Assembly (NCBI GenBank): GCA_038065715.1
Contig: JBBTQL010000011.1
Location: forward strand, 2,509-66,508
DNA: 64,000 nucleotides
Source: Patescibacteria group bacterium
Lineage (GTDB): Bacteria; Patescibacteriota; Minisyncoccia; Minisyncoccales; Staskawiczbacteraceae
Direction of reading: 5' to 3'
Of the stretch, positions 13,159-36,937 are shown piece after piece. How positions within the stretch are numbered: the first letter of the stretch is position 1; the number at the start of each line of letters is the position of its first letter. The translations under genes and the position numbers were made by a program. The notes under the pieces are model-generated. The model worked only from the letters and a program-made list of their open reading frames with translations. It had not been told where the DNA came from and ran no database searches.

Positions 13159-13160
13159 AT

Positions 13161-14117: not shown

Positions 14118-14124
14118 AATAATT

Positions 14125-14493
14125 TTAGTCGCCTTTAATTATGCGTTTTGAATCTTCTTCAAAATGCGTGGTTGAAAATTCAAAAAGATTTGAATCTTCT
14201 AAGGCTGTCATTTGATGCCTTAAACCTGTTGGTATTTCAAGGCAGTCGCCTGGCAAAAATGTATAAACATTTGCCTTTGAAATATCGTCTTCCCAGCCTG
14301 CCTTTATTTCTAGTTTGCCTGAAAAAAGATAAAAAGTTTCATGTTTTTTTTCATGGTAATGAAAACTGCACTTTTTTCCTTTTTCAAAAAATAATAATTT
14401 GCCGCAATATTCCCTGTTGCTTATCCAGTCTTCAAACCCCCAGCCTTTTAAATGTTTTTCTGGCTTATACGGCTTTGGTATTTCTTTATCCAT
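14125..14493 (-). CDS. cupin-domain protein, type II phosphomannose-isomerase-like
   Basis: 122 aa. The pattern WGFEDW..., CSFHYHEKKHETFYLFSGK, PGDCLEIPTGLRHQ and a C-terminal EEDSKRI resembles the PMI/ManC-type cupin. Confidence 0.7.
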   Translation of the reverse strand: MDKEIPKPYKPEKHLKGWGFEDWISNREYCGKLLFFEKGKKCSFHYHEKKHETFYLFSGKLEIKAGWEDDISKANVYTFLPGDCLEIPTGLRHQMTALEDSNLFEFSTTHFEEDSKRIIKGD

Positions 14494-21964: not shown

Positions 21965-23079
21965 TACCTTATTAATGCGCCGTTAGATGCCCAATAAAAA
22001 ACCTTGCTTGTAAGCTCCCATTTTCTTTTCCAGTTATTGCCGTATCTTATTATTAATAGACCTTTATACGCAGTTCTTAAAATTACTGATGGGATCAAAA
22101 AAAGAATTGAAAAAACAAAAGAAAACAGCAGCATATCCATAAATGTTGAATTTTGGAAGAATAATTTTAAACAGCCAAAATAAGAAAAATAGTTGAAGGA
22201 TTTAAAAATTTTTAACACTATCATATCTGCCACAAAACACCACTTAAGCTCTTTGTCCCTTTGAATAAATAATGAAGCAAAATTACTATTCATATATTTG
22301 CTGGATAACAAAAAATTATTTAATTTCTTTTGCAACTGATAATGCAATATAAATTTATTTTCAACAAAATACTTATATTGGGGCAGTTCTTGTTTTACTA
22401 TAGTTTTATTAAGCGCAATTCCATCAATATCGGGATATTTTAAAAACATTAAAGAGGTTAAAATCATATGCGCGTGTTTTGTTTCAATTCCTTTTTCCAA
22501 ATCTTTGTCTTCTGCTATTATTTTTTTTGCAAGGCAAGAATTAAAAATTAATACTGATATAAAGCCGATGTTCGGAAAATTCAACCCAATAATGTCTCTC
22601 TTGTCTATTTCAAATGCTTCCGGCTTATTTTTATTGACGCTGTTCCTAAAAATTATTTTTTCTCCGGTCAGTTTATCTGTAAGGTATGATTCTATGCCAA
22701 GTATAATTAATCCTGTTTTTTCTTTCCCTTTTTTTTTAATAAAATTGACAACTTCGTTTAAACCGCCGTTTGCCATTAAATCATCGTCTCCAAAAAGCCA
22801 GACAAAATCGCCCTGGGACATTTCTATTAGTAAAAGTATGTTTTTATCAGCGCCTATATTTTCTTTGTTTTCATTATATTTTATTAAGTCTGGATATTTT
22901 TCTATAAAAACCCTTACAATCTCCCGCGTGTTATCTGATGAAGCATTGTTAGAGACACATATTTCAACTTCTCCCGCCAGCGCTTTAGCCTGAGGCATTA
23001 TGTTGTCTAAAAGTTTATTTAAACAAGAAGCCCTATTCCATGTCGGGATAGCAATGCTTAGTAAAATATCATTTTCCAT
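21964..23079 (-). CDS. glycosyltransferase family 2 with C-terminal membrane segment
   Basis: 371 aa. It has LSIAIPTWNRASCL, VSNNASSDNT and a DxD-type motif LFGDDD, plus a hydrophobic C-terminus. Confidence 0.75.
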   Translation of the reverse strand: MENDILLSIAIPTWNRASCLNKLLDNIMPQAKALAGEVEICVSNNASSDNTREIVRVFIEKYPDLIKYNENKENIGADKNILLLIEMSQGDFVWLFGDDDLMANGGLNEVVNFIKKKGKEKTGLIILGIESYLTDKLTGEKIIFRNSVNKNKPEAFEIDKRDIIGLNFPNIGFISVLIFNSCLAKKIIAEDKDLEKGIETKHAHMILTSLMFLKYPDIDGIALNKTIVKQELPQYKYFVENKFILHYQLQKKLNNFLLSSKYMNSNFASLFIQRDKELKWCFVADMIVLKIFKSFNYFSYFGCLKLFFQNSTFMDMLLFSFVFSILFLIPSVILRTAYKGLLIIRYGNNWKRKWELTSKVFYWASNGALIR

Positions 23080-24391
23080 AATTTTTCAAAAATTTATCAA
23101 AGGTTAAAATTATATAACTCATTTTCTCTTTAGTTATGCCTGCGTAGACGCCGATCCAAAAAAGATTATTCATAACAAAATCCGTGTTTTCCAAAGAACC
23201 GGAAACTCTGAATTTAATATTCTGATACGCTGGCTGTTTTAATAAATTTCCTCCAAAAAGCATCCTGGTTGCTATTTTATTTTTTTCTAAATATTCTACA
23301 ATTTCATTCCGACTAAATGGAGCCGTTTCTTTAATTAAAATAGGAAAGCCAAACCAAGAAGGTTCAGAATTTTTTTCCGTTTCTGGCAAAATAAAATATT
23401 TTTCGTAATTCTTAAAAAACTTATAAAGGAAAACAAAGTTCTTTTTTCTAGCCTCAATAAATTGAGGCAATTTTTTCAACTGAGCCAATCCAACAGCCGC
23501 CTGCATGTCCGTGATTTTTAAATTATAGCCAATATGAGAATAAATATATTTATGATCGTAGTCTTGCGACAGTTCTCCAAATTTGAAAGAAAATCTATTT
23601 TTACAGGTATTGTCAAAACCTGGCTCGCAAAAACAATCCCTGCCCCAATCGCGGAAAGAAACAATAATTTTTGTTAATAAAGGGTTATCAGCGCACACTG
23701 CTCCTCCTTCACCCATAGTAATGTGGTGAGCTGGATAAAAACTAAAAGTGCTTATATCTCCGAATGTGCCGGTATGTTTGTTGTTATACTTAGACCCCAG
23801 CGCATCGCAAGAATCTTCTAAAAGCCAAAGATTATATTTTTTTGCTATTTTTAAAATTTTATCAATATTAGCCGGGTTTCCCAATGTATGGGCGACAAAA
23901 ATTGCCTTTGTTTTTTGGGAAATTGATTTTTCAATTTTTTTTACATCAATATTATAGCTTCCCAACTCAATATCAACAAAAACCGGCGTTAAATTATTTT
24001 GCAAAATCGGATTTAATGTAGTGGGAAAACCGCAGGCAGTTGTAATAACTTCGTCGCCTGGTTTTAATTGTTTTTTACCAAGTTTTGGCGAAGTCAAAGC
24101 AGATATAGCCAGAAGATTGGCAGAAGAGCCGGAGTTAGTTAAAAGGCAATATTTTACGCCCAAAAATTCGGCGAATTCTTTTTCAAATTGTTTGGCATAT
24201 CTTCCGGCAGTTAGCCAAAAATCAAAAGAGGCGTCAACTAAATTTATCATTTCTTTTTCATCATAAACTCTGCCGGCATAATTTACCGGGGTCTCCCCCG
24301 GAATGAATTTTTTTTCCCCCGACTTTCTGACTTTGTAAAATTCCTTAACCTTATTTAAAATTTCTTTTTTAATTTGTTTCTCTGTTTTCAT
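23069..24391 (-). CDS. rfbH: CDP-6-deoxy-L-threo-D-glycero-4-hexulose 3-dehydrase (E1; RfbH/DdhC/AscC type)
   Basis: 440 aa. It is colinear with Salmonella RfbH as I recall it. The active-site region is SFYPAHHITMGEGGAV, with His where the aminotransferases have Lys. The Fe-S Cys motif is RDWGRDCFCEPGFDNTCKNRF. Confidence 0.85.
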   Translation of the reverse strand: MKTEKQIKKEILNKVKEFYKVRKSGEKKFIPGETPVNYAGRVYDEKEMINLVDASFDFWLTAGRYAKQFEKEFAEFLGVKYCLLTNSGSSANLLAISALTSPKLGKKQLKPGDEVITTACGFPTTLNPILQNNLTPVFVDIELGSYNIDVKKIEKSISQKTKAIFVAHTLGNPANIDKILKIAKKYNLWLLEDSCDALGSKYNNKHTGTFGDISTFSFYPAHHITMGEGGAVCADNPLLTKIIVSFRDWGRDCFCEPGFDNTCKNRFSFKFGELSQDYDHKYIYSHIGYNLKITDMQAAVGLAQLKKLPQFIEARKKNFVFLYKFFKNYEKYFILPETEKNSEPSWFGFPILIKETAPFSRNEIVEYLEKNKIATRMLFGGNLLKQPAYQNIKFRVSGSLENTDFVMNNLFWIGVYAGITKEKMSYIILTFDKFLKNYGK

Positions 24392-25034
24392 TTTTAATAT
24401 ATTGTTGCAGTTCTAGCGGAGTATTAAAAACCATGTCAGCTCCAGCCTTAATTAGATCATCTTTTGTTCTATACCCCCAAGTTACGCCAATACTGTAAAT
24501 AGAATTATTTTTGCCGGCAATAATATCATTTTCTGTATCGCCTATTATGGCTGTTTCTTCTTTTTTTAGTTTATACTTTTTAATAACATCTTTTACATAT
24601 TCGGCTTTTTCAGATTTTTTGTCTGTACCGTCTGTTCCACGAACAAAGATAAAATATTTTTCTAAATTATGTAATTTTATTATTTCTTTCAAAAATAATT
24701 CTATTCTATTGCTCACTATAAAAATTTGGTAGCCGTGATTTTTTAAAAATGCCAACAATTGCTCAATCCCAGAATAGACAGTATTAAGTTTGATCCCTTT
24801 TTCTGCGTAATATTTTATAAATAGACCAGACCCCTTGCTAATAGTTTCCTGATTATTTGTGCTCAACATAGTGGCTAAAAATTCTGCCAACGGCAGTCCA
24901 ATCAATTTCGTTATTTGATCTTCTGAAACTTCTTTTTTAAAATCTTTAGCAACAAGTTTAAAAGATGTGACAATCCCAGGTTTTGAATCGACCAATGTTC
25001 CGTCAAAATCAAAAATAATGTTTTTAAATTTCAT
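24369..25034 (-). CDS. HAD-superfamily hydrolase (phosphatase)
   Basis: 221 aa. It has IIFDFDGTLVDS, VSN and IGDTENDIIAG. Confidence 0.75.
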   Translation of the reverse strand: MKFKNIIFDFDGTLVDSKPGIVTSFKLVAKDFKKEVSEDQITKLIGLPLAEFLATMLSTNNQETISKGSGLFIKYYAEKGIKLNTVYSGIEQLLAFLKNHGYQIFIVSNRIELFLKEIIKLHNLEKYFIFVRGTDGTDKKSEKAEYVKDVIKKYKLKKEETAIIGDTENDIIAGKNNSIYSIGVTWGYRTKDDLIKAGADMVFNTPLELQQYIKNENRETN

Positions 25035-26728
25035 ATTTTATTTTTTTCTTCAAACAACCCTGCTTCCCATTTGGGGAGTTTTTTTTGATTAGGGTCAATA
25101 AAAACTTCGCAAAAAATAGGACCGTTAAAATTTAAAATATCTTTTATTTTATGCAGGTCTTTTTCACTTTTTATTGATTCGTATTTTAATCCCCAGGCAG
25201 GAGCTAATTTGTTCCAGTTAGGCAGCCCCACTCCAGAGCTTTCATCTGATGCAAAAACCTTTCCGAAATAATTTAGATGCGTGTTCCTGATTGAATAATA
25301 GCCTCCATTATTAAATAAAAATATTTTTATTGGAAACTTGTTGTAAATCACTGTTTGCAATTCTTGCATATTCATCATAATTGATCCATCTCCTTCAAAA
25401 CATATTACCTGTTTTTTATTGCTTGCAACGCAAGCTCCCATTGCCATGGGAAGGCCCTTGCCCATTTCACCAAAAGCAGTATTTGTAATTAACCTTTGGC
25501 CTTTCTTGAGCTTTAACGCTTGATGCGGAGTTTCTGCAGCCATGCCGTTTGTGGTAATAACTGGATAATCACATTTTCCACTTAAACTTTCTAAAAACTT
25601 ATAAACATCAATGTATTTATTATTTTTTTCAACGTTACTGCTCACGTGAGTACTCACGTTACCCCTCACGTTACCCCTCACGTTACCTCTTGCATCCCAT
25701 CTTTTTAATTTTATATTTTCTTTTAACAATCCCTTCAAAAAATCTTTAGAGTCAGCTACAACCGGAATATCAATTTTTAATGTTCTTTTATAAAGCTCTG
25801 CTTTATCTATATCCACCATTATTTTTACAGCGTTTTTTGCAAATTTTTTATATTCAAAAGAAGTATTTCTAATCTGCATTCTTGTACCTATAATAAGAAG
25901 CAAGTCACAATTATCAACTGCATAATTGGCTGTTTCAACCCCAGTCATTCCCTGTTCTCCTAAATAATATTGATAATCATCGTTTACTAAATCTGTTCCA
26001 CTCATAGCTGAAACAACATTAATTTTTGTTTTTTCAACAAATTCCCAAAGCTCTTTAACTGCTCCAGCCAATCTTATCCCGTTTCCAACAATCATTAAGG
26101 GCCTTTCAGCTTTGTTAAGCGCCGCTTTAATTTTTTTAAATGGAATAACGTACTTTGTTTTTTTCGGAGTTTTAAAGTTTTTAAGTTTTTTTTCATTGAT
26201 TTCTGAGCGCTGGACGTCTAAAGGAATCTCAATAAAAACTGGACCCGGTTTTCCGGATTTAGCCAAATAATGAGCTTTTTCCAAATGATATTTTATTTCG
26301 TTAGGATTTTCCACGCATACAGCATACTTTGTTATTGGTTTTACAACATCAAGCAAATTTATTTCCTGAGGCTCCCCAAGTCTCCTTAATCCGTTTTTTA
26401 TGTCTTGTCTTGTAAGCTTTATTTCCTTTCTCACCTGCCCCGCAATAACCATTATGGGAATTCCATCAACCCAGGCAGAGCCAATGCCCGTAACCGTATT
26501 TGTTCCACCAGGCCCCGATGTAACAGATACCACGCCAATTTTATCATTATTTATTCTTGAATAACCTTCTGCGGCCAAAGCGCAAGCTTGTTCGTGGTGA
26601 CAGCAAATAGCGTTCAATTTTGATCTTCCAATAGAGTCCACTGTATGCATGCAACCGCCTCCTGAAACCAAAAAAACGCTGTCAGTAATTCCTTCTAAAT
26701 ATTTAACTACATAGTCGCTTAATTTCAT
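25031..26728 (-). CDS. thiamine-diphosphate-dependent enzyme, acetolactate-synthase-like (YerE-like candidate)
   Basis: 565 aa with the three-domain ALS architecture. It has SGPGGTNTVTGIGSAWVDGIP in the Pyr domain and the TPP-binding motif GDGSIMMNMQELQT...NNGGY. A repeat-encoded insertion sits in the linker (see the repeat feature). Confidence 0.8.
   Translation of the reverse strand: MKLSDYVVKYLEGITDSVFLVSGGGCMHTVDSIGRSKLNAICCHHEQACALAAEGYSRINNDKIGVVSVTSGPGGTNTVTGIGSAWVDGIPIMVIAGQVRKEIKLTRQDIKNGLRRLGEPQEINLLDVVKPITKYAVCVENPNEIKYHLEKAHYLAKSGKPGPVFIEIPLDVQRSEINEKKLKNFKTPKKTKYVIPFKKIKAALNKAERPLMIVGNGIRLAGAVKELWEFVEKTKINVVSAMSGTDLVNDDYQYYLGEQGMTGVETANYAVDNCDLLLIIGTRMQIRNTSFEYKKFAKNAVKIMVDIDKAELYKRTLKIDIPVVADSKDFLKGLLKENIKLKRWDARGNVRGNVRGNVSTHVSSNVEKNNKYIDVYKFLESLSGKCDYPVITTNGMAAETPHQALKLKKGQRLITNTAFGEMGKGLPMAMGACVASNKKQVICFEGDGSIMMNMQELQTVIYNKFPIKIFLFNNGGYYSIRNTHLNYFGKVFASDESSGVGLPNWNKLAPAWGLKYESIKSEKDLHKIKDILNFNGPIFCEVFIDPNQKKLPKWEAGLFEEKNKI
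25629..25688. repeat. in-frame 12-bp tandem repeat, 5 units (3 near-identical)
   Basis: The units are tcaacgttactg / ctcacgtgagta / ctcacgttaccc / ctcacgttaccc / ctcacgttacct. On the minus strand they encode RGNVRGNVRGNVSTHVSSNV inside the TPP enzyme. Confidence 0.85.
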
Positions 26729-27669
26729 TTTATAAATTTTTCAATTATTTTTTTATGTTTTGTTTTATGAAAGAATAAATACATTGTTTCTTTAGTGCTT
26801 TCCTTAACCTGCCCAAATTTTCTAATCTTATTTTTGCTGATAACATAACATTCGTAATCAAGACCGTGCAACAAACCAATTATATCGTTTGGATGATAAT
26901 TAAATTTTTTAGACCATTTTCTCAGCATTTCAGAAAAAATTATTGGCTTATATTTTTTAATTGTTTCAATTCCTCCTTCAAAAACAAGTTTCTCTGATCC
27001 CTCAACGTCGCATTTTATAAAATCTAATTTTTTAAGCCGTAACCTTGGAACAAAGTCATCCATTCTCCTCACCTGGCACTCCTCTCTTATAGTACAGCCT
27101 GCTTCCCTCAAATTTGCCATTGAAGATGCTGTAGCTACCTCTATATCAAAATAAAATTTGACTTTCTTATTCTGATTTGAAAAACCAAAACAATATGCCT
27201 TGGCGGCAGTATAATTATTTAATTTTAAATTTTTTACCATATATTCATAAGATGACTTTATGGGTTCAAAAGAATAAACAGAAGTTCCTTTTTTTTCATA
27301 AAGAATTAAAAGGGTATACCACCCTATGTTGGCTCCAATATCAAAAACAACATCTCCTGGTTTTATAATTTTTAAAATCATATTATTTTCATTTTCTTCG
27401 CTGGCTGAAATTTGGGAAAGATTAAGATATGTTAATGGGATAGAATAAATATCTCTATTGTCACAGCAAACCATTATACTTTTATTTCCCTTGCGAACAG
27501 TGAATATCACGCCTTCATCAGTGATTTCTATTTTTTTGACCGGCGAATTTTTAATTAATTTAGGGTACTCAAATAAATGTTTGTGGGTTTCAAACATTTG
27601 TTTCATATACTTATCTTTATCGCCTCCTTTCTTGAGATAATTTTTTTTGTTTTGCAATAAATTAGCCAT
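26725..27669 (-). CDS. FkbM-family methyltransferase
   Basis: 314 aa. It has VVFDIGANIGWYT followed by SFEP, the typical FkbM-family pattern. Confidence 0.75.
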   Translation of the reverse strand: MANLLQNKKNYLKKGGDKDKYMKQMFETHKHLFEYPKLIKNSPVKKIEITDEGVIFTVRKGNKSIMVCCDNRDIYSIPLTYLNLSQISASEENENNMILKIIKPGDVVFDIGANIGWYTLLILYEKKGTSVYSFEPIKSSYEYMVKNLKLNNYTAAKAYCFGFSNQNKKVKFYFDIEVATASSMANLREAGCTIREECQVRRMDDFVPRLRLKKLDFIKCDVEGSEKLVFEGGIETIKKYKPIIFSEMLRKWSKKFNYHPNDIIGLLHGLDYECYVISKNKIRKFGQVKESTKETMYLFFHKTKHKKIIEKFIK

Positions 27670-28895
27670 TATATTCTTAAAAGATACTGATTTGCTCCAT
27701 ACTTAATGCATGGTTTACATAAATCATTATTTTTTTTCTTATTTTTTATATCTTCAAGAGAATCAAGCAAAAAATCTTTAGATACCACCGATTTTGGGTA
27801 GTTATAACAGGCGCAGCATAATGAAACAGATCTGTCCCAATTAATATTTAGCTGATTCGATAAATAACGGCAAGGAAGATTGCGGAATTGCTTGAACATT
27901 TCTAAACCTTCGTCAACGCTTACCGGCAAGAGTTTCATAAATTCTTTTGTCTTTTCATCTGTCTTTCCTTGGCAATGGTCAATAATTCTTTCAACGGGCG
28001 TGAAATTGGCGCGGCAGGTAGATAATATAAAACATAGCTCTTTGCAAAGCTCTTTCATCTTTTTTAAATCTTCACCCGTATTATTTTTATATAAATGGTA
28101 ATTCACTTCAACAGGAAAAGAACTGCCTAATTTTTCCATAAAATATTTCAGCCTGTATAAATTTGATTTTACCAAATTTATATCTCCGGCGGTGTGGGTG
28201 GTGTTATAAACTTCAGGATAATATCCAGAAACCGAAACTTTAAAAATATCAGGGGATGCCTCAATAGTTTTATAAACTTGGTCAGTGTTGGCAATTGAAA
28301 AATTGGTTGAAACAGCAACTGCAATGCCTTTTTTGTGGGCATAATTTATAATCAAATCTATTTCTGGATGAAGCAAGGGCTCCCCCCAATTATACAAGCA
28401 AATATGGCTTACTAGGTCTGATTCTTTGGTAACCTTATCTAGTATTTTTTTAAAATCTGAAAAAGGCATAATTCCCTTATGTCTCTTAATTGTTTCAATG
28501 CTGTTGGCGCAGGAGGGACACTTTAAATTGCAAGACCCCACAATGTCAATGGTTATAAAATTTTCACAAAAATCTTTATAATTAATAAAATCCGAGGCAG
28601 ACAATCCTGCCTTTTTCAATATGTCTGTGATTTCATCTTCCTTTATTGAAACAGCAACCACCAAAAGAAGATTTTTGTGTTTAGCTTTTAAACTCGAAAG
28701 ATTTTTGGGAGAAATAATATCAAGGCCTAAAATTTGTTTGCCGTAAAGCGAGGAATCCGAGTCAATAAAAGTAACCAAATTAACATCATGCTTTTTTGCA
28801 AAACGGCAAAAACCAATGCCTGTCATTCTAGCCCCAAAAACAGCCACAGGGCGCTTACCTAAAATTTTTAAAAGTTTTTTTGCATTTTTTTCCAT
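27669..28895 (-). CDS. radical SAM enzyme with N-terminal Rossmann-like (sugar C-methyltransferase C-terminal-domain-like) module and Cys-rich C-terminus
   Basis: 408 aa. The CX3CX2C motif is at IVGSCNLKCPSC. The N-terminal segment VAVFGARMTG...FIDSDSSLYGKQILGLDIISP is similar to the C-terminal modules of 32693..33859 and 52539..54512. The C-terminus carries the cysteines CCACYNYP and CKPC. Confidence 0.75.
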   Translation of the reverse strand: MEKNAKKLLKILGKRPVAVFGARMTGIGFCRFAKKHDVNLVTFIDSDSSLYGKQILGLDIISPKNLSSLKAKHKNLLLVVAVSIKEDEITDILKKAGLSASDFINYKDFCENFITIDIVGSCNLKCPSCANSIETIKRHKGIMPFSDFKKILDKVTKESDLVSHICLYNWGEPLLHPEIDLIINYAHKKGIAVAVSTNFSIANTDQVYKTIEASPDIFKVSVSGYYPEVYNTTHTAGDINLVKSNLYRLKYFMEKLGSSFPVEVNYHLYKNNTGEDLKKMKELCKELCFILSTCRANFTPVERIIDHCQGKTDEKTKEFMKLLPVSVDEGLEMFKQFRNLPCRYLSNQLNINWDRSVSLCCACYNYPKSVVSKDFLLDSLEDIKNKKKNNDLCKPCIKYGANQYLLRI

Positions 28896-28913
28896 TTTCA
28901 GAAAATTTTAATT

Positions 28914-29939
28914 TTATACATAATATTTTTTAAGCCTTTCAGCGTCATTATTCAAAACATCTTCGGGAAACAGCCTGTATTTAATCAATTCGCATTTACC
29001 GCAAATTTTAGAGGCGCCCTTGATTCCGCCAAGCATTTTGTGGCGAAATGTTTGAAACTCGCTGTTGTTCCATATTTCTTTTACTGATTGTTTATTGCAG
29101 TCGCCCAATATGGCAGGATATTCAAAGGAATAACATGGAACAACTTTTCCATCTGGATTAATTTGCATATGAAAAAAGGGCTGAGGGCAAATTTTAACTT
29201 CAGAGACGGGCAAGCCAAACTGGGTAAAACCCATTTTTTTGCCCTTTAAAATATTTTCATAATCCACTCCAGAATGTATAGGGACAGTGTGTTCAACCGC
29301 AATAGTGTCAGAAATATTGCCAAAAATTTCATAAAATCTTTTTTTATCATCTTCTCCGTCAAGCGCGCAATCTATTATTTTAATATACATTTTAGCCAAA
29401 CCTTTATTAACAAAAAAATAACGCAAATTATTTACAAAGTTTTCAAAATCTAAATTCGCCTTGCTTATTTTTTGGTATTTTTCTTTGCTTGTTCCCTGTA
29501 AAGAAACAACCAATCTAGAAAGGCCCGCAGCAATCAAGGCATCTGCCATTTTTGGAATAAGTAGCGAACCATTAGTTAGAATTTCTATTGTTTTAGCAAC
29601 GCCCTTTTGGGAGGCATATTTTACCATATCAGCTATTTGGGGGTGCAAAAGAGGCTCGCCAATTCCAACAAAGCGCAGAACCTTAATTTTTTCAGGAAAA
29701 TCAGCCATATCATTTATGCATTTTTTATACAAATCAAAATCCATAACAATCTTATCTGAAATAAAGCCCCTTTTATCTTTTTCAATCCTAAAAATTCCGC
29801 AGTAACTGCATTTAAAATTGCAGTTGTAAATTGGAAACATTTGTATCACAAAAGGAGTGCTTAAAGGAAGCGCCTCTGCAAGCCTAGTCCTTTTTCCCCC
29901 GGGCGCTTGCCCGGAAATATCTTTTGCTTTTTTTGCCAT
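28914..29939 (-). CDS. radical SAM enzyme, SPASM/twitch-type C-terminus
   Basis: 341 aa. It has IYNCNFKCSYC (CX3CX2C). The C-terminal cysteines are CPQPF...PCYSF...CGKCE. Confidence 0.75.
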   Translation of the reverse strand: MAKKAKDISGQAPGGKRTRLAEALPLSTPFVIQMFPIYNCNFKCSYCGIFRIEKDKRGFISDKIVMDFDLYKKCINDMADFPEKIKVLRFVGIGEPLLHPQIADMVKYASQKGVAKTIEILTNGSLLIPKMADALIAAGLSRLVVSLQGTSKEKYQKISKANLDFENFVNNLRYFFVNKGLAKMYIKIIDCALDGEDDKKRFYEIFGNISDTIAVEHTVPIHSGVDYENILKGKKMGFTQFGLPVSEVKICPQPFFHMQINPDGKVVPCYSFEYPAILGDCNKQSVKEIWNNSEFQTFRHKMLGGIKGASKICGKCELIKYRLFPEDVLNNDAERLKKYYV

Positions 29940-29946
29940 AAAATTT

Positions 29947-31587
29947 TTAAACTAACGCGGGTAAATTAAATTGTTTAGCATAATTTCTCCAAATTTTAGA
30001 CTCTTCTATTATTTTTTTGTATTTATCTTTATAAACCGAATATTTCTCACTCAAACCCAATAGCTTGCAGCATTTTGCTGAAAAATAATAAGCAAAGGCA
30101 TGATCATTTTTTATGCGCATTGCGTTTTCAAAACCCTCTAATGCCTTAGCATAGTTTCCTAACCTAAAATCGCTGTTTTGCACAAAATTAATCTCAAGAT
30201 TCAAAGAATAAGCTTTTTCCTGTATATATTCTGCAGTAAAATCTGGAGTTTCTATTACTGCATTTTTAAAGTCGGAGTCTGTGTAGTCGCCCGTCAAATA
30301 ATTATTTTTTATGCACAGATCAAATAATTCGCTACCCACAAGAGGAGTTGCAATATAAATTCTTATCCATGCAATATCCAAGTTCCTTAAAAATAGCCTC
30401 GTGTCTTCAATGTCTTTTTTTGTTTCTCCAGGCAAGCCGATCAAAATATTGGCGTCTGTATAAATTCCAAGCGCCCGACAGTCAGCAACAACCTGTTTTA
30501 TAATTGAAAGAGTGAGGGGTTTGTGCATAACATCTTTTAAGACTCTGTCTGATCCCGATTCTATTGCTAAAGTAATTTCATTAACCCCAGCTGACTTAAT
30601 TGCAGAAAGCATTTCTTTATCAAGGGCATAAAGGGCTAACCCTGTAAGAAAAAAGATGTTTAACTTTAATTCTTTTGCAAGATCAATAATTTTTAAAGCC
30701 CTTTTTCTGTCTAACATAATATTATCATCCAAAAAGGCAATAGTTTGGGCGCCATACTGCTCTTTTAACCGCATAAAATCTTCTTTCAACCGCTCTAAAC
30801 TATGATAGCGCATTTTTCTTCCATGAATGGAATGTGAAGCGCAAAAACAGCATTTATGCGGGCATCCCCTTGAAGTGGAATAAGGGAAATAATTCTTTTT
30901 ATTATCAAAAGAAGTGAATGTGTCTATACTTGGACTTAATTTAGATTGGCCGGTTTCTAAAAGATCATAGTCAGGGAATGGTATTTCGTCAAGATTTTCA
31001 ATAAAATCATATTGAAATGGTCCGGTTTTTTCTTTTGTTATCCATGACGGATTGCTTTTCAAAAATTCTTTCTTGTCAGATGTTTTTACAAGACCAAGTA
31101 TGGGTTTTTCGCCTTCGCCATAGCATAAAGCGTCAAAAGCAGAACTGTCTTTAAATATTTGTTTATACATATTACTGGCAGCTCCGCCTCCAGCTATTAT
31201 TATCGCATTCGGGAATATTTTTCTTGAAATGTCAGCAACATCAAGCATGTTTTTATAAGATGGGGCGAACAAGGCTGATATTCCTATTATGTCTGGATTA
31301 AAATTAACCCACTCTTTCTCTGAGAGAATTTCCAAAAATAATTCAGAAAAAGAGTTGTATTTAAAATCATCTATCTTGTTCAAAATCACATTAAAGTCGA
31401 TGAGCTTTGTTTGGACTTCAGCGTTCTTTTTTAGGTAAGCGCTAATAGAAAGCAAACCCATGGGCATGTCTGTTACAACATTCCCGTAGTTACCCGATTT
31501 TTTTACCACTACCCGCTCGTTAAAGCCTGGATTCACAAAACTGTCAAAATTTGGATAGGGCGGAACTATGAATAAAATTTTATCCAT
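29947..31587 (-). CDS. B12-binding-domain radical SAM enzyme (class B, methyltransferase-like) with C-terminal TPR-like region
   Basis: 546 aa. The N-terminal region is of the B12-binding type (ILFIVPP...IIGISALF), followed by SRGCPHKCCFC. It is a paralogue of 38866..40524. Confidence 0.8.
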   Translation of the reverse strand: MDKILFIVPPYPNFDSFVNPGFNERVVVKKSGNYGNVVTDMPMGLLSISAYLKKNAEVQTKLIDFNVILNKIDDFKYNSFSELFLEILSEKEWVNFNPDIIGISALFAPSYKNMLDVADISRKIFPNAIIIAGGGAASNMYKQIFKDSSAFDALCYGEGEKPILGLVKTSDKKEFLKSNPSWITKEKTGPFQYDFIENLDEIPFPDYDLLETGQSKLSPSIDTFTSFDNKKNYFPYSTSRGCPHKCCFCASHSIHGRKMRYHSLERLKEDFMRLKEQYGAQTIAFLDDNIMLDRKRALKIIDLAKELKLNIFFLTGLALYALDKEMLSAIKSAGVNEITLAIESGSDRVLKDVMHKPLTLSIIKQVVADCRALGIYTDANILIGLPGETKKDIEDTRLFLRNLDIAWIRIYIATPLVGSELFDLCIKNNYLTGDYTDSDFKNAVIETPDFTAEYIQEKAYSLNLEINFVQNSDFRLGNYAKALEGFENAMRIKNDHAFAYYFSAKCCKLLGLSEKYSVYKDKYKKIIEESKIWRNYAKQFNLPALV

Positions 31588-32680
31588 TTTGTATTAATTT
31601 TGGACTTTTATGAAAAGGTATTTTAGTTTTGTCTTCTTCAGTAAACACATCTTTCCAAAGAACAGGAACCGGCTGCCCGTAAACTTTTTTGGCTATATAT
31701 TTGTTGATAAAATTCCTGTCTTCGGCAATAAGGCATGTGTCAACATGTTCGCCAAACCACTTAATATCCAAGCCTCGTTGAATTATATCCTTTAAAGATT
31801 CATCAAAAATATTACCAATAGATATTTGCATATATTGGCAAGGCAAAACATCTCCCTGTTGGGTTATGGTTATCATTGTTTTTACTGCAATACAACCTAA
31901 ATTAAGACCGTATGCTGGAGTAAGATGCGTAAAAACATTATATTTTTTTTCAAGCTCCTCCATATACTTCATATCGTCTCTATTCACCAAAACATCAAAA
32001 TTTCCCTCCCATGCTCCCACTGGTTTTGCATAACTTACAAACACTCCTACTCCTTTTTTATTAAAGTACTCAAGAAACTTAATAAACTCATCTGAATGAA
32101 GCCTTTGTTTTGTAACTACTGAATTTATAAAAATATCTAATCCTGCATTTAAAGAAGCATCAATGGCTCTCATAGATCTTTCGTGAGAACCTTTTTGATT
32201 TCTGAACGCATCGTGTTCTTCTGCGTTTAAGCTATCCAAACTTAGCTGAATTCTATCAACGCCAATTGACTTTAAGTGTTTTGCCATTTTATCGTTCAAA
32301 AACCAGCCATTTGTATCGCAATTTATATAAAATTTTTGAGGGTCAATAGCGGCCACTAATTCATTCAAATCTGGAAAAACCAGTGGTTCTCCGCCAGTAA
32401 TTACAAAACGCGCAAGCCCCAGGTCGTCAGCCTGTTTCGAAAGGTCTTTTATAACAGCGGGATTTAACTGTCGTCCATCTTTTTTACCTTGAAGCCGCCT
32501 TATAGAACAGTGTTGGCAACGGAAATTACAAATGTAATTATACTGGATGTGCATTATGGCAATGCTCTCACCCTTTCTGATTTTTTCGTCAAACTTCATC
32601 ACCTTTTCATAGACAAGCGGTTTCTCCTTTTGAAGTTTACCTCTTTTATTGTTTTCTTCTGGTTTTAAATTTGTTGTCAT
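31580..32680 (-). CDS. radical SAM enzyme
   Basis: 366 aa. It has YICNFRCQHC (CX3CX2C), ITGGEPL and scattered C-terminal cysteines (twitch-like). Confidence 0.75.
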   Translation of the reverse strand: MTTNLKPEENNKRGKLQKEKPLVYEKVMKFDEKIRKGESIAIMHIQYNYICNFRCQHCSIRRLQGKKDGRQLNPAVIKDLSKQADDLGLARFVITGGEPLVFPDLNELVAAIDPQKFYINCDTNGWFLNDKMAKHLKSIGVDRIQLSLDSLNAEEHDAFRNQKGSHERSMRAIDASLNAGLDIFINSVVTKQRLHSDEFIKFLEYFNKKGVGVFVSYAKPVGAWEGNFDVLVNRDDMKYMEELEKKYNVFTHLTPAYGLNLGCIAVKTMITITQQGDVLPCQYMQISIGNIFDESLKDIIQRGLDIKWFGEHVDTCLIAEDRNFINKYIAKKVYGQPVPVLWKDVFTEEDKTKIPFHKSPKLIQNG

Positions 32681-32692
32681 AAATTTTAAAAA

Positions 32693-33859
32693 TTATTTCA
32701 TAACAATAATAATATTTTCTGCGCCCATGTTTTTAATTTCTTTGGCAATATCATCGCTGTACAAGGCAGAGCAGACAACCACAGGCCCCTTGTGCATCTT
32801 CAATTTTTCGGACGAATATATTGGAATGTTTTTCATTTTCATGCCTTGTTTTTTGGGATCTTTGTCAATAAAAAATTCGATATTACATTTACTAAGAGAA
32901 CTGTTGTTCAAAAGCCGTAAAGCATGGGAACCCGCTCCCCAAACGACAATCTTTTCCTTAGAGTTTGCAATCCTGTCTATTTCCGGCCATTTGCTTTTTT
33001 CTTCAGATTCTTTAATGTGGGCCAAGACAGAATCCCTTACTTTTAAATTTTTAACTATATTTTTTATATTTTCTTTTTTATTTGTCTTTTTGTATATAGC
33101 ATAAACTATAGGATACAATTTGTTTGAATCCATTTGGTTGATTACCTTTTTTTCATATTGCAGCAAGTCAAAACCTTTTTGAAGAAACAAATTATTCAAA
33201 GAATTTTCGTCAAAATGATTTATATGCTCTGTATCAAAAAAATAATAAGGAACTATAAAAAATTCAGAATAGCGGGAAGCGTCCGGAACTTCTATATATA
33301 AGACCCCACCGTCATTCAGATTGTTTGACATAATATCTGCCGCTTTTTCTAAATCGCGAATATGCTCTAAAACATGAGAAAGCACAATACAGTCAAATTT
33401 TTTATCAGGAATAACTGAATTGATTGAAAAAAGCTCTCCTTCCACCGTATCAATTTCATTATTTCTTGCGTTTTGTACGCACACTTTTGCAGGATCTAAC
33501 CCCGTTAAATTCTTATAGCCTATTTTTTTTAACTCAACCAATAATTCTCCGTTAGCGCACCCAATATCCAATATGGAGGCCTCTTTATCGGGCAAAAATT
33601 TTGACAAGGGCTTCATCTTTTCCGTTGTCCACACAGGAGTTCCTCCGGATTCATATTTTGAAAATTCTTGATAATACCTACTATAATCCTGCTGGCTCGC
33701 CTGAGTATCGGCAAAAACAAAACCGCACCTATGGCAGCAGACAATATCATAATCTTTTGGCAGTTCATACATATCTAAATCAGCAAAAGATTGATGGTGC
33801 AATATTTCGCCAGAATCGCTGTTGCATATAGGGCATTTACGTATAAGTTTTTTCTCCAT
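32693..33859 (-). CDS. NDP-hexose C-methyltransferase-like protein (TcaB9/TylC3 architecture)
   Basis: 388 aa. It has an N-terminal zinc ribbon (CPICNS...CHRCGF), the SAM motif ILDIGCANGELL and a C-terminal Rossmann-like module, IVVWGAGSHAL...FFIDKDPKKQG. Confidence 0.7.
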   Translation of the reverse strand: MEKKLIRKCPICNSDSGEILHHQSFADLDMYELPKDYDIVCCHRCGFVFADTQASQQDYSRYYQEFSKYESGGTPVWTTEKMKPLSKFLPDKEASILDIGCANGELLVELKKIGYKNLTGLDPAKVCVQNARNNEIDTVEGELFSINSVIPDKKFDCIVLSHVLEHIRDLEKAADIMSNNLNDGGVLYIEVPDASRYSEFFIVPYYFFDTEHINHFDENSLNNLFLQKGFDLLQYEKKVINQMDSNKLYPIVYAIYKKTNKKENIKNIVKNLKVRDSVLAHIKESEEKSKWPEIDRIANSKEKIVVWGAGSHALRLLNNSSLSKCNIEFFIDKDPKKQGMKMKNIPIYSSEKLKMHKGPVVVCSALYSDDIAKEIKNMGAENIIIVMK

Positions 33860-33864
33860 GTTAT

Positions 33865-34854
33865 TTAGCTTTTTAAACGTTGAATTAATTTTTCTGAACT
33901 CTCGTCAATATTATCAATGTCGCAATAGTCGTTCATCGTACAGTCTTTGCAAGGTTCTGTTTTATTTTTATTTCCACGTAAATGTTCAATCTGCAAATTT
34001 CTCAATTTCTTCCCATTCCAAATTTCAAAAAGTGAATTCTTATTTATATCCCCTATTACATTTACTCTTTTCCAATCAACACAACAGGGAACAACTTCGC
34101 CATCTGCTTGGACCTGAAAACCCTTGAACATCTGCACGCAAACCCTGCGCTTAGTAAGCTCTCCTCCATACCTAAATTCATTGGGATTATAATCAAGGTC
34201 CAACTGAGGCCACATGGGAACCAATTTTTCAATATATATTTCATTGCAACGGTTACTAAACATGTTCAAAAACTTTGTTTTTTCTTTTTCAGAAGAAATA
34301 GCTTTACTGTGGATTTTAATATGAAGCGTGCATTTTCCCCTGTTTTTATACAGCAAGCCTACCTTGTCCAACAAGTTCTGAAAATTTATTTTTAAACCGC
34401 TGGTTTGCTGATAATCATCAGATGACAATCCTTCAATCGAAATAATTATCCTGTCGGCAAAACGAGGCAAAGTTTTTGCCAGATCATCTGTAAGTAATAT
34501 GCCGTTGCTTATAAATTCTATTCTTTCTGCAAGATTTTTTTCTTTGGCATATTGCAACATTTTTACAATATCTTTATTTGTCAAAGGCTCTCCATTCCCG
34601 CAAACGCGTAATAATTTAACTTTATTCGGAAATTCAGCTAAGTCGTCTATTAATTTTTTAAATAATTTTAAGGACATCAAACTCTTTTTTAACGCCTTCC
34701 CTCCAGTGCTTTGCGGACAAAAAATACACTTTAAATTACAAAACCCTGACGGTTCAATATATACAACAAGCGGCGTTGTAAGAGGAATATTATCCTGCAA
34801 TATCAGACGCTCATCTTGATGCACTTGAGATGTTATTTTTGCTTTTGTGTTCAT
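33865..34854 (-). CDS. radical SAM enzyme, SPASM/twitch-type C-terminus
   Basis: 329 aa. It has SGFCNLKCIFC. The C-terminal cysteines are CVQMF...PCCVDW...CKDC. Confidence 0.75.
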   Translation of the reverse strand: MNTKAKITSQVHQDERLILQDNIPLTTPLVVYIEPSGFCNLKCIFCPQSTGGKALKKSLMSLKLFKKLIDDLAEFPNKVKLLRVCGNGEPLTNKDIVKMLQYAKEKNLAERIEFISNGILLTDDLAKTLPRFADRIIISIEGLSSDDYQQTSGLKINFQNLLDKVGLLYKNRGKCTLHIKIHSKAISSEKEKTKFLNMFSNRCNEIYIEKLVPMWPQLDLDYNPNEFRYGGELTKRRVCVQMFKGFQVQADGEVVPCCVDWKRVNVIGDINKNSLFEIWNGKKLRNLQIEHLRGNKNKTEPCKDCTMNDYCDIDNIDESSEKLIQRLKS

Positions 34855-34862
34855 ATTTATTT

Positions 34863-35351
34863 TTATATATATTTTTTATACATATTTTGGCACTTTAAAA
34901 AACCTGGCGGGCAAGTTTTATGCCATTTAAGATAGCCCGAATCCTTAATAGATAAATTTTTATTTTTTAACACAACTTTGTTGGAGAGAAAGCATTTATA
35001 TAATAAAGATATAAAATGCCCCCGCGTTTCCTGTTTTGATATCAGCTGATAAATTCCCATGGGGTTGGGTTCAAATTTGACCTTTGCGCCAATTTCCTGC
35101 ATTGCAACTTTTTGTATTCTCGCTTCTGTTTTTTCTTTAAATCTTATAATGCCGCCAGGAATATGCCAGCCTTTATAAAATTCATCATCTCTCCAAGCTA
35201 AAAGCGTACGGCCCTTTTCATCTTTTATCAGCAAATCAACATTTATCATTGGCGTGATTCTACTTATAAAAAAGAATATTTCTTGAGGCAAGCCTTTTGA
35301 AGGGTTTTTAATTTGATTCTCTAAAAATTTTATTGCTATTTTTGTGTCCAT
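34863..35351 (-). CDS. Nudix-family protein, GDP-mannose mannosyl hydrolase (NudD/WcaH)-like
   Basis: 162 aa. It has a modified Nudix box, GGIIRFKEKTEARIQKVAMQEIGA (G-x5-E-x7 followed by a degenerate REUxEExGU), comparable to the altered box of E. coli Gmm as I recall it. Confidence 0.6.
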   Translation of the reverse strand: MDTKIAIKFLENQIKNPSKGLPQEIFFFISRITPMINVDLLIKDEKGRTLLAWRDDEFYKGWHIPGGIIRFKEKTEARIQKVAMQEIGAKVKFEPNPMGIYQLISKQETRGHFISLLYKCFLSNKVVLKNKNLSIKDSGYLKWHKTCPPGFLKCQNMYKKYI

Positions 35352-35365
35352 ATTTTTATTTTTGA

Positions 35366-36877: not shown

Positions 36878-36937
36878 AATTATTTCACGACAATATTTTT
36901 TAAATATTCGTCTTTAATTATAAAATTTTTATCTATT

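What the first reader, a model, noticed from the sequence alone, without database searches (positions are those of the whole stretch)
27669..28895. A nucleotide-sugar-binding-type Rossmann module is reused on three different catalytic cores, including a radical SAM enzyme
**Seen in the sequence.** Three segments align by eye.
- The N-terminus of the radical SAM protein: VAVFGARMTGIGFCRFAKKHDVNLVTFIDSDSSLYGKQILGLDIISPKNL.
- The C-terminus of the C-methyltransferase-like protein 32693..33859: IVVWGAGSHALRLLNNSSLSKCNIEFFIDKDPKKQGMKMKNIPIYSSEKL.
- More weakly, the C-terminus of the AAC(3)-methyltransferase fusion 52539..54512: LGLYGGGLQVISLLNHK...

**Established knowledge.** In the sugar C3-methyltransferase TcaB9, as I recall its structure, the C-terminal domain contributes to binding the dTDP-sugar.

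**Inference.** Putting this module on a radical SAM core argues that the enzyme acts on a nucleotide-linked sugar. I do not recognise this domain architecture from characterised enzymes.
Basis: partly seen in the sequence, partly recalled or inferred. Interest (0 to 1): 0.55.

Follow-up and report, generated by a model that had tools for sequence, protein, structure and literature searches.

The report
Nucleotide-type Rossmann module on radical SAM
The first 113 residues of this radical SAM enzyme are a small Rossmann-like domain clearly related to the tail domain of a sugar C-methyltransferase-like neighbour; the domain is widely reused in glycan enzymes, and here it marks an uncharacterised enzyme of a sugar-tailoring gene set conserved across many bacterial phyla.

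Summary
The core observation holds. The N-terminal 113 aa of the radical SAM protein (27669..28895, minus strand) and the C-terminal ~95 aa of the methyltransferase (32693..33859) are homologous: profile-profile probability 99%, E = 5e-18. The third segment, the C-terminus of 52539..54512, is only marginally supported.

The module is a Rossmann-like domain. Pfam splits its family into C2185-like_N, Methyltransf_14, PglD_N and CoA_binding(_3). Its closest solved structures are Rex and 3NKL, not TcaB9 or TylC3.

It is not confined to three cores. Among 79 representative proteins it is fused to GT2, GT4, FkbM, NKWYS, PglF-type dehydratase and several kinds of radical SAM enzyme.

The module-fused radical SAM clade sits in one conserved cassette in 47 loci from many phyla: SPASM rSAM, RmlD-like reductase, TcaB9-like C-methyltransferase with the same module, ThDP enzyme, aminotransferase. 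Relatives without the module lack this context.

This supports, but does not prove, that the module holds the nucleotide handle of a sugar-nucleotide substrate. No characterised member was found. I rate it a new variant of a known kind, of moderate interest.

The parts
28557..28895 (-). N-terminal Rossmann-like module of the radical SAM protein (aa 1-113). Motifs: GARMTGxG (aa 21-28), FIDSD (aa 43-47), AVSIKEDEI (aa 81-89).
   Evidence: Conserved in 50 homologues, with invariant G21 R23 M24 T25 G26 G28 D45 D47 A81. AF2 pLDDT 90.5, alternating beta-alpha fold. hhalign against the methyltransferase C-domain gives E = 5e-18. PDB profile hit to 3nkl at 4.7e-8. Foldseek finds Rex, 3nkl, FkbM 2py6, WbaP and VioB.
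27876..28556 (-). Radical SAM core (aa 114-340), with CX3CX2C at C122/C126/C129 (28509..28532).
   Evidence: Pfam Radical_SAM scores 43.9 bits against a cut-off of 29.5. The cysteine triad is invariant in 84/84 sequences. The full-length AF2 model has pLDDT 92.8 and pTM 0.92. Foldseek finds SuiB, viperin, anSME, BlsE, BtrN and DesII.
27672..27875 (-). C-terminal twitch/SPASM-like cysteine-rich segment (aa 341-408): C342-X17-C360 C361 ... C393-X2-C396. Probably holds an auxiliary Fe-S cluster.
   Evidence: These cysteines are conserved in 83-84 of 84 sequences. The Pfam SPASM match is weak, 17.2 bits against a cut-off of 21.5. BtrN is the best PDB sequence hit.
32696..32980 (-). C-terminal copy of the module on the C-methyltransferase-like protein 32693..33859 (aa 294-388). 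Motifs: WGAGSHA and FIDKD.
   Evidence: Pfam Methyltransf_14 7.8e-7 and CoA_binding 3e-5. Precomputed PF22674 C2185-like_N. hhalign against the rSAM N-domain. 3nkl at 3.5e-8.
33158..33610 (-). Class I SAM methyltransferase core of the same protein (aa 84-234), preceded by a CxxC...CxxC zinc-ribbon-like N-terminus.
   Evidence: Pfam Methyltransf_23 2.5e-28. PDB TylC3 (4rv9) 1e-6 over aa 93-355.
52617..52943 (-). Possible degenerate third copy, at the C-terminus of the AAC(3)-like + methyltransferase fusion 52539..54512 (aa 524-632).
   Evidence: Pfam Methyltransf_14 E = 1.3e-4, 22.3 bits, just under the 23.5 cut-off. Not found by the A1, A3 or broad HMMs with default filters. Weak in-register hits only.
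23069..40524 (-). Cassette in which the rSAM is embedded, in order of transcription:
- B12-rSAM (38866..40524)
- two SDRs (37803..38879, 36938..37816)
- NeuB-cupin (35366..36877)
- orf162 (34863..35351)
- SPASM rSAM (33865..34854)
- methyltransferase + module (32693..33859)
- SPASM rSAM (31580..32680)
- B12-rSAM (29947..31587)
- SPASM rSAM (28914..29939)
- target rSAM (27669..28895)
- FkbM methyltransferase (26725..27669)
- ThDP enzyme (25031..26728)
- HAD (24369..25034)
- DegT aminotransferase (23069..24391)
   Evidence: Precomputed Pfam on the source contig. Pfam of the ThDP enzyme. NCBIfam. The same gene set recurs around module-fused homologues in other phyla.

Best explanation
The protein is a two-part enzyme.

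Residues 1-113 form a small Rossmann-like nucleotide-binding module. Its family is split by Pfam into C2185-like_N, Methyltransf_14, PglD_N and CoA_binding(_3). Residues 114-408 form a twitch/SPASM-type radical SAM core with a probable auxiliary Fe-S cluster.

Shown: the module is homologous to the C-terminal domain of the neighbouring C-methyltransferase-like protein. It has been fused to many glycan-pathway catalytic domains.

Inferred: the module grips the nucleotide (ribose-phosphate) end of a nucleotide-linked sugar intermediate. The near-universal Asp after strand 2 (D45) and the glycine-rich loop would do this. The sugar is thereby presented to the radical SAM site for H-atom abstraction. 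The C-methyltransferase of the same cassette would use its own copy to hold the same handle.

The chemistry is unknown. A BtrN-like oxidation or an epimerisation of a sugar carbon is the most economical guess.
For: **Homology**
- hhalign probability 99%, E = 5e-18, with reciprocal in-window HMM hits.
- The A1 and A3 profiles hit the C-domains of TcaB9-type C-methyltransferases encoded next to rSAM homologues (those E-values are for a two-sequence database).

**Fold**
- AF2 pLDDT 90.5 for the module alone, with alternating beta-alpha elements.
- The full-length model has pTM 0.92, so the two domains are predicted to pack firmly.

**Conserved residues**
- They lie in the loop after strand 1, at the end of strand 2 and after strand 4. 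By established knowledge, this is the usual Rossmann ligand crevice.
- D45 is Asp in 136 of 139 unrelated module copies.
- In VioB, Asp32 and Lys37 of the ~90-residue N-terminal domain bind the dTDP ribose (PMC9271549). I did not make the residue alignment to D45.
- The WbaP relative binds UMP, UDP and UTP (PMC10942596).

**Fusion partners**
- Nearly all use nucleotide-activated substrates: GT2, GT4, PglF-type dehydratase, TagF/LicD, FkbM, NKWYS.

**Gene context**
- In 47 module-fused loci, neighbours are SPASM rSAM 83%, RmlD-like SDR 83%, ThDP enzyme 77%, class I methyltransferase 60% and DegT 53%.
- 37 of the 47 carry at least one further module-bearing gene.
- The 35 loci of module-less relatives have none of this.

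**Other rSAM fusions**
- Other radical SAM classes carry the module too.
Against: - There is no direct evidence of ligand binding.
- The classical GxGxxG is replaced by an invariant GARMTG in this family.
- The closest solved structures are Rex (NADH) and 3NKL (no known ligand), not a sugar-nucleotide complex.
- TcaB9 and TylC3 are absent from the top 50 Foldseek hits and from the profile searches.
- In WbaP the related domain is regulatory and dimerising, not substrate-binding.
- Nine module-bearing genes in a row in L058 would fit a protein-protein assembly role equally well.
Confidence: 0.55

Rival explanations
1. The module is a regulatory or oligomerisation domain, as proposed for the WbaP DUF. 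It would bind a free nucleotide as an allosteric signal, or pair the cassette's enzymes into homo- or hetero-oligomers. It would not hold the substrate.
For: - The WbaP DUF (PF13727) dimerises the enzyme and is stabilised by UMP, UDP and UTP; UMP inhibits WbaP (PMC10942596).
- WbaP appears among the structural and sequence neighbours.
- Rex is also a dimeric sensor.
- Several enzymes of one cassette carry the same module, up to nine consecutive genes in L058. That would suit assembly into a complex.
Against: - The reactions of rSAM enzymes, methyltransferases and aldo-keto reductases release no nucleotide product to sense.
- In VioB/PglD-type enzymes the homologous domain binds the substrate nucleotide.
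- The full-length model is confident as a compact monomer, pTM 0.92. This does not exclude oligomers.
Confidence: 0.25
2. The module is a Rex-like NAD(P)(H) or other dinucleotide-cofactor domain. It would give the enzyme a second redox function, or a route for reducing equivalents.
For: - The best Foldseek hits are Rex/RSP with NADH or NAD+ (2.5e-6).
- The profile hits Rex at 4.5e-4.
- 29 of 50 family members give weak Pfam CoA_binding hits.
- The wider module family mostly keeps GxGxxG plus the acidic residue after strand 2.
Against: - In the rSAM family the central glycine is an invariant arginine, GARMTG. By established knowledge, this disfavours canonical dinucleotide binding.
- The domain has only about five strands and no substrate-side half.
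- NAD(P)H cannot reduce a 4Fe-4S cluster directly without a flavin.
- The same module is fused to glycosyltransferases, methyltransferases and an aldo-keto reductase that has its own NADPH site.
Confidence: 0.1
3. The N-terminal domain is a degenerate cobalamin-binding domain, as in class B radical SAM methyltransferases.
For: B12-binding domains are also Rossmann-like and sit N-terminal to radical SAM cores. Three such enzymes are encoded in the window.
Against: - hhalign of A1 against both nearby B12-rSAM proteins gives probability ~1%.
- None of the 50 N-domains hits Pfam B12-binding.
- No cobalamin protein appears in the top 50 Foldseek hits.
- One B12-rSAM (L020) carries the module in addition to its B12 domain.
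Confidence: 0.02

Closest known systems
C-terminal domain of sugar C-3-methyltransferases (TcaB9, TylC3, KijD1; Pfam Methyltransf_14)
   Same: - Protein 2's C-domain matches the Methyltransf_14 model above its cut-off. It is homologous to the rSAM N-domain.
- TcaB9-type C-methyltransferases encoded beside rSAM homologues carry a domain hit by both profiles.
- Full-length protein 2 hits TylC3, 4rv9.
   Different: - The rSAM N-domain does not reach the Pfam model's threshold.
- The domain profiles do not find TcaB9 or TylC3 in the PDB.
- These structures are not in the top 50 Foldseek hits.
- The module covers only model positions ~61-146 of 160.
- The dTDP-binding role of the TcaB9 domain is from memory. 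I could not retrieve the paper.
N-terminal domain of PglD/VioB/PerB-type sugar N-acetyltransferases (Pfam PglD_N)
   Same: - It is a small five-stranded Rossmann-like domain fused to a different catalytic domain.
- It binds the nucleotide of the NDP-sugar substrate: in VioB, Asp32 and Lys37 bind the ribose (PMC9271549).
- VioB and the PglB acetyltransferase are structural neighbours.
- 17 of 79 proteins found with the rSAM N-domain profile are called PglD_N by Pfam.
   Different: - The partner is a left-handed beta-helix acetyltransferase, not a radical SAM core.
- Only 2 of 50 rSAM N-domains give even a weak PglD_N hit.
DUF of large phosphoglycosyl transferases and PglF/WbpM-type dehydratases (Pfam CoA_binding_3; PDB 3NKL, WbaP 8T53)
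   Same: - 3NKL is the best PDB sequence match of both the rSAM and methyltransferase module profiles, ~4e-8.
- PglF-type dehydratases are retrieved by the rSAM N-domain profile, with the module just before the SDR domain.
- The WbaP DUF binds uridine nucleotides.
   Different: - These are membrane-associated proteins.
- The proposed role there is allosteric and dimerising, with a beta-hairpin swap.
- No radical chemistry is involved.
Rex / RSP redox-sensing repressors (Pfam CoA_binding)
   Same: They are the best structural matches: Foldseek E = 2.5e-6, TM ~0.63. The profile hit is 4.5e-4. The F-x-D-x-D motif and the 'SP' region align.
   Different: Rex binds NADH through a canonical GxGxxG and carries a winged-helix DNA-binding domain. 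The rSAM family has GARMTG.
Twitch/SPASM radical SAM enzymes acting on sugars or nucleotides (BtrN, DesII, BlsE, viperin)
   Same: - The core fold matches.
- BtrN is the best PDB sequence hit.
- The pattern CX17C...CX2C of conserved C-terminal cysteines resembles the BtrN auxiliary-cluster ligands, as I recall them.
   Different: - None of these has an N-terminal Rossmann-like module.
- TM-scores normalised to the query are 0.49 or less, so only the core aligns.
- No NCBIfam equivalog reaches its cut-off.
PDB 2PY6, FkbM-family methyltransferase from Methylobacillus flagellatus
   Same: It is a solved structure in which a domain that superposes on the module (Foldseek 6e-4, 115 columns) belongs to an FkbM methyltransferase. 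The module + FkbM architecture recurs in representatives and in L058.
   Different: The catalytic domain is different. I know of no ligand or functional study for this entry.

Membership tests
Radical SAM superfamily | CX3CX2C cluster-binding motif, and a Pfam PF04055 match above its gathering score | tested here: met
   C122/C126/C129 are invariant in 84/84 sequences. PF04055 scores 43.9 bits against 29.5.
Twitch/SPASM subclass of radical SAM enzymes | C-terminal cysteine-rich extension that ligates at least one auxiliary 4Fe-4S cluster | tested here: inconclusive
   C342, C360, C361, C393 and C396 are conserved in 83-84 of 84 sequences, with CX17C...CX2C spacing. Pfam SPASM scores only 17.2 bits against 21.5. 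Cluster content cannot be tested here.
Class B (cobalamin-dependent) radical SAM enzymes | N-terminal B12-binding domain (PF02310) | tested here: not met
   No PF02310 hit in 50 N-domains. hhalign against the window's B12-rSAMs gives probability ~1%.
Pfam Methyltransf_14 (C-methyltransferase C-terminal domain) | Match to PF08484 at or above its gathering score (23.5 bits) | tested here: not met
   - rSAM N-domain: no hit at E <= 1 for the window protein; 9 of 50 relatives hit weakly, best 2.2e-4.
- Protein 2 meets it: 29.5 bits for the full protein and 32.9 bits for the domain alone.
- Protein 3 misses narrowly, at 22.3 bits.
Pfam Methyltransf_14 (C-methyltransferase C-terminal domain) | Homology to the domain by profile-profile comparison through an intermediate family | tested here: met
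   A1 against A3 gives probability 99%, E = 5e-18. 41 of 43 A3 members match PF08484. A1 and A3 hit the C-domains of canonical Methyltransf_13+23+14 proteins.
Pfam Methyltransf_14 (C-methyltransferase C-terminal domain) | Binds the dTDP part of the sugar substrate, as in TcaB9 | not testable with these tools
   No coordinates, docking or binding assay were available. The TcaB9 paper could not be retrieved.
Pfam C2185-like_N (PF22674) | Match to the PF22674 model | tested here: inconclusive
   - Precomputed hits are strong in protein 2 and its relatives.
- They are faint or weak in many rSAM homologues, and absent for the window rSAM itself.
- The local hmmscan reports the model for 5 of 43 methyltransferase C-domains only.
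Classical dinucleotide-binding Rossmann domains (Rex/CoA_binding type) | Alternating beta-alpha fold, with an acidic residue at the end of strand 2 | tested here: met
   AF2 secondary structure. Foldseek to Rex and 3NKL. D45 is invariant.
Classical dinucleotide-binding Rossmann domains (Rex/CoA_binding type) | GxGxxG/A glycine-rich loop | tested here: not met
   The rSAM family has invariant G21-A-R23-M-T-G26-x-G28. The central glycine is arginine in 50 of 50 sequences.
Pfam PglD_N | Match to PF17836, and fusion to a left-handed beta-helix acetyltransferase | tested here: not met
   2 of 50 give weak hits, best 0.056. The partner here is a radical SAM core.

The most novel reading that the evidence does not exclude
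A dedicated nucleotide-handle-binding module has been recruited repeatedly by radical SAM enzymes of several classes. It is N-terminal on twitch-type enzymes, C-terminal or internal on SPASM-type enzymes, and C-terminal on a B12-type enzyme.

This would define a large, cross-phylum and wholly uncharacterised branch of radical SAM chemistry carried out directly on sugar nucleotides. The target family would be one step of a conserved pathway to a heavily C-modified (methylated, two-carbon-branched, aminated) sugar.

Swapping the N-terminal adaptor (Rossmann module, TPR repeats, or none) would retarget one radical SAM core between nucleotide-linked and other substrates.
Probability: 0.35. Interest if true: 0.72.

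Novelty: new variant of a known kind. Interest (0 to 1): 0.5.

Why it matters
Very few radical SAM enzymes are known to act on nucleotide-linked sugars; DesII is the classic case. None that I know of has a separate nucleotide-recognition domain.

If the module is a substrate handle, it gives a simple sequence marker for finding radical SAM enzymes of sugar-nucleotide tailoring in genomes. It also points to a conserved cassette of unknown product. That cassette occurs in Patescibacteria, Elusimicrobia, Omnitrophota, SAR11, Prochlorococcus, magnetotactic bacteria, Pseudoalteromonas and gut Clostridia.

Some of these hosts are cultured: Magnetovibrio blakemorei MV-1, Pseudoalteromonas neustonica and Jezberella montanilacus. 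The question can therefore be tested experimentally.

Tried and rejected
1. **Cobalamin-binding domain.** Rejected.
2. **Direct match of the rSAM N-terminus to Pfam Methyltransf_14, or to TcaB9/TylC3 in the PDB.** Not found. Homology had to be shown through the protein 2 family and canonical C-methyltransferases.
3. **A profile for protein 3's C-domain.** The word-indexed homologue search returned nothing. Jackhmmer on the proteins held converged on the module family, but only from first-round hits of 15 bits or less in a small, enriched database. I do not count this as proof.
4. **Literature.** I searched for C2185-like_N / PF22674, for radical SAM enzymes with a Rossmann-like N-domain, and for the cassette (rSAM + YerE-like + C-methyltransferase). 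Nothing relevant turned up. The TcaB9 structure paper is not held.
5. **NCBIfam.** No model names the target rSAM, protein 2 or protein 3 above its cut-off.
6. **Geometry of the predicted two-domain structure.** Not possible, because the tools return no coordinates.
7. **Chance similarity.** Rejected by the hhalign E-value of 5e-18 and the reciprocal, exclusive in-window HMM hits.
Full report
**What is at the coordinates**

The window is one long run of minus-strand genes. It comes from a 271,864-bp contig of a 'Patescibacteria group bacterium' metagenome-assembled genome, GCA_964366045.1.

- **ORF 27669..28895 (408 aa).** It has a Pfam Radical_SAM domain at aa 120-283 (43.9 bits, cut-off 29.5) and a weak SPASM match at aa 342-391. 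Its first ~113 residues match no Pfam model at E <= 1.
- **ORF 32693..33859 (388 aa).** It has a zinc-ribbon-like N-terminus and a Methyltransf_23 core. Its C-terminal ~95 residues match Methyltransf_14 (7.8e-7) and CoA_binding (3e-5).
- **ORF 52539..54512 (657 aa).** This is an AAC(3)-like domain plus a Methyltransf_23 core. Its tail scores 22.3 bits on Methyltransf_14, just under the 23.5 cut-off.

**Is the similarity real?**

Pairwise BLASTP is only suggestive: 5e-4 and 2e-5 for single comparisons. Profiles settle it for the first two segments.

- The rSAM protein has hundreds of full-length homologues in which the N-domain is well conserved. The consensus is WGARMTG(I/M)G ... F(V/I)DSD ... 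AVSIKEDEI.
- I aligned 50 such N-domains (A1) and 43 C-domains of protein 2 homologues (A3).
- Each HMM, searched against all 210 six-frame ORFs of the window, finds only its own protein and the other one (6e-10 and 3e-9).

The third segment is not established.

- None of the profiles finds it with default filters.
- hhalign gives 1-2% probability.
- A homologue search with it returned nothing.
- What remains is the near-threshold Pfam hit, plus many weak hits (15 bits or less) that fall in register on the module region of unrelated families.
- I regard it as a probable degenerate copy, unproven.

**What the module is**

AlphaFold2 gives a confident model of the N-domain: pLDDT 90.5, with an alternating strand-helix Rossmann-like topology.

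- **Sequence profiles against the PDB.** Both A1 and A3 hit best the orphan N-terminal domain 3NKL of a WbpM/PglF-type 'UDP-D-quinovosamine 4-dehydrogenase' (4.7e-8 and 3.5e-8). Rex comes next. Neither profile hits TcaB9 or TylC3 at E <= 10.
- **Foldseek.** It ranks Rex/RSP first (2.5e-6), then 3NKL, an FkbM methyltransferase (2PY6), the WbaP DUF, VioB and the PglB acetyltransferase. No C-methyltransferase is in the top 50.
- **Exhaustive profile search of 1.84 billion representatives with A1.** This found 860 proteins at E <= 1e-3. The module sits at the N-terminus, at the C-terminus or internally.
- **Pfam names for the module, among 79 full-length hits.** Pfam calls the module PglD_N in 17, Methyltransf_14 in 15, CoA_binding in 12 and CoA_binding_3 in 3.
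- **Partner domains in the same 79 hits.** Partners are NKWYS (14), Radical_SAM (13), GT2 (10), FkbM (10), PglF-type Polysacc_synt_2 (6), GT1/GT4 (5), class I methyltransferases and TagF/LicD.
- **Existing catalogue entry.** The collection's precomputed annotation has a model for this module, PF22674 'C2185-like_N'. It marks protein 2 strongly and many rSAM homologues faintly. No paper in the held library mentions it.

So the module is a known, promiscuous domain of glycan-pathway enzymes. Its link to the TcaB9-type domain is real but remote. The link runs through protein 2's family and through canonical Methyltransf_13+23+14 C-methyltransferases. The C-domains of those proteins are hit by A1 and A3 (E-values are for a two-sequence database).

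**The radical SAM part**

The full-length model is confident and compact: pLDDT 92.8, pTM 0.92. Its core resembles SuiB, anSME, viperin, BlsE, BtrN, DesII and MoaA. No PDB entry covers both domains; TM normalised to the query is 0.49 or less.

Besides the CX3CX2C triad, C284, C342, C360, C361, C393 and C396 are conserved in 83-84 of 84 sequences. The CX17C...CX2C spacing is what I recall for the auxiliary cluster of the twitch enzyme BtrN. BtrN is also the best PDB sequence hit. No NCBIfam model reaches its cut-off.

The N-domain is not a cobalamin-binding domain.

**Context and comparative genomics**

Around the target, the window encodes the following:

- three SPASM-type rSAM enzymes and two B12-type rSAM enzymes;
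- protein 2;
- an FkbM methyltransferase;
- a ThDP enzyme;
- a HAD phosphatase;
- a DegT aminotransferase;
- two SDRs;
- a NeuB-cupin fusion.

Further along are nonulosonic-acid-type genes and a third B12-rSAM.

The same set surrounds homologues in a Bacteriovoracia, a Magnetovibrio and a Desulfococcaceae genome. There the methyltransferase is a canonical TcaB9-type enzyme adjacent to, or near, the rSAM.

A scan of one genome per species returned 79 loci. With the three above, they fall into three groups:

- 47 loci with the module-fused form, CX3CX2C at about residue 122. Two of these are the same Bacteriovoracia region from two assemblies.
- A stand-alone form of ~340 aa.
- A form with a TPR-like N-terminal extension.

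In the 47 module-fused loci, neighbours are SPASM rSAM 83%, RmlD-like SDR 83%, ThDP enzyme 77%, class I methyltransferase 60%, DegT 53%, second SDR 51%, FkbM 34% and HAD 34%. Thirty-seven loci carry at least one further module-bearing gene, usually the C-methyltransferase.

The 35 module-less loci show essentially none of these neighbours and no module genes. I checked two of them by Pfam. The TPR-fused gene of Alteromonas lipolytica lies next to a TPR + GT41 protein. The stand-alone gene of a Thioploca lies in unrelated genes.

Other radical SAM classes also carry the module:

- a rSAM with a C-terminal copy, P0189;
- a B12-rSAM with a C-terminal copy in L020;
- a Clostridia locus, L058, with nine consecutive module-bearing genes. 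Six are radical SAM enzymes in at least three arrangements. The others are an aldo-keto reductase, an FkbM methyltransferase and a protein of unknown family.

**How it most likely works**

*Shown:* the homology, the fold, the fusion diversity and the conserved cassette.

*Inferred:* the module binds the nucleotide end of a sugar-nucleotide intermediate.

The conserved residues lie in the loop after strand 1, at the end of strand 2 and after strand 4. By established knowledge, this is the usual Rossmann ligand crevice. The Asp after strand 2 is near-universal in the module family: D in 136 of 139 unrelated copies.

In VioB, Asp32 and Lys37 of the ~90-residue N-terminal domain hold the dTDP ribose (PMC9271549). 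I did not align that residue to D45. The WbaP DUF is stabilised by UMP, UDP and UTP (PMC10942596).

Enzymes such as RmlD-like reductases, DegT aminotransferases, TcaB9-type C-methyltransferases and YerE-like ThDP enzymes all act on NDP-keto-sugars (established knowledge). A radical SAM step on the same nucleotide-linked scaffold is therefore the economical reading. Two enzymes of one cassette sharing the module fits a shared handle.

The actual reaction is unknown. A BtrN-like oxidation or an epimerisation is a guess.

**What weakens this**

- The family replaces GxGxxG by an invariant GARMTG.
- The nearest solved structures bind NADH or nothing known.
- The WbaP precedent is regulatory and dimerising.
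- I could not inspect model coordinates to see whether the crevice faces the Fe-S/SAM site.

The rivals, a regulatory or assembly domain and a Rex-like dinucleotide cofactor domain, stay open.

**Novelty**

The domain family, and the fact that it is shuffled among glycan enzymes, are already catalogued. Its fusion to radical SAM cores is visible in databases. I found it neither described nor characterised.

I rate it a new variant of a known kind, with moderate interest. The interest would rise if the module proves to be a substrate handle, and if the cassette's product is identified.

Noticed in passing
window 23069..40524 and 58217..59638: The window carries seven radical SAM genes. Four are twitch/SPASM-type (27669, 28914, 31580, 33865) and three are B12-binding (29947, 38866, 58217). 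This is a striking investment for a Patescibacteria genome.
   Followed up: partly
L058:767-17432 (Clostridia bacterium, contig MGBC000178.7): Nine consecutive genes each carry the module. Six are radical SAM enzymes in at least three domain orders. The others are an aldo-keto reductase with a C-terminal copy, an FkbM methyltransferase with an N-terminal copy, and a 650-aa protein with no Pfam match.
   Followed up: partly
L058:767-2455 and L058:12683-14338: In 767-2455 the Pfam SPASM segment (aa 241-302) lies N-terminal to the Radical_SAM domain (aa 344-503), after the module. This is an apparent permutation of the usual order. The similar 552-aa protein 12683-14338 has its Radical_SAM domain equally late (aa 319-478).
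   Followed up: no
L020:371-2263 (Rhodospirillales MAG): A B12-binding radical SAM protein (631 aa) carries the module at its C-terminus (aa 536-619). The module therefore co-exists with a B12 domain and does not replace it.
   Followed up: partly
L047-L085 (e.g. L047:9974-10993, L071:9545-10888): The same radical SAM core also occurs stand-alone (~340 aa) and with a TPR-like N-terminal extension (~450 aa). Neither sits in the sugar-tailoring cassette. The Alteromonas TPR-fused gene lies next to a TPR + GT41 protein, which hints that the N-terminal adaptor sets the kind of substrate.
   Followed up: partly
window 35366..36877: A 503-aa fusion of a NeuB-type ulosonic acid synthase with a cupin domain. 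It is below the NCBIfam cut-offs for both NeuB and PseI.
   Followed up: no
window 43836..45650: A 604-aa fusion of a weak UDP-GlcNAc 2-epimerase-like region with a CMP-sugar cytidylyltransferase domain. A second stand-alone cytidylyltransferase lies at 48395..49120 and a second NeuB at 50199..51320.
   Followed up: no
window 51317..54512: The AAC(3)-like + methyltransferase + degenerate tail protein (52539..54512) overlaps the start of a DUF4910/DUF2172/M28-peptidase-like protein (51317..52555). A homologue search with its C-terminal 161 residues found nothing.
   Followed up: partly
window 34863..35351 and 60663..61772: Two ORFs (162 aa and 369 aa) have no Pfam match. A relative of the 162-aa ORF recurs in 47% of module-fused loci. 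A 164-169-aa gene with a weak NUDIX call occupies cassette positions in two of the three loci examined gene by gene (L005, L006); whether it is the same family was not checked.
   Followed up: partly
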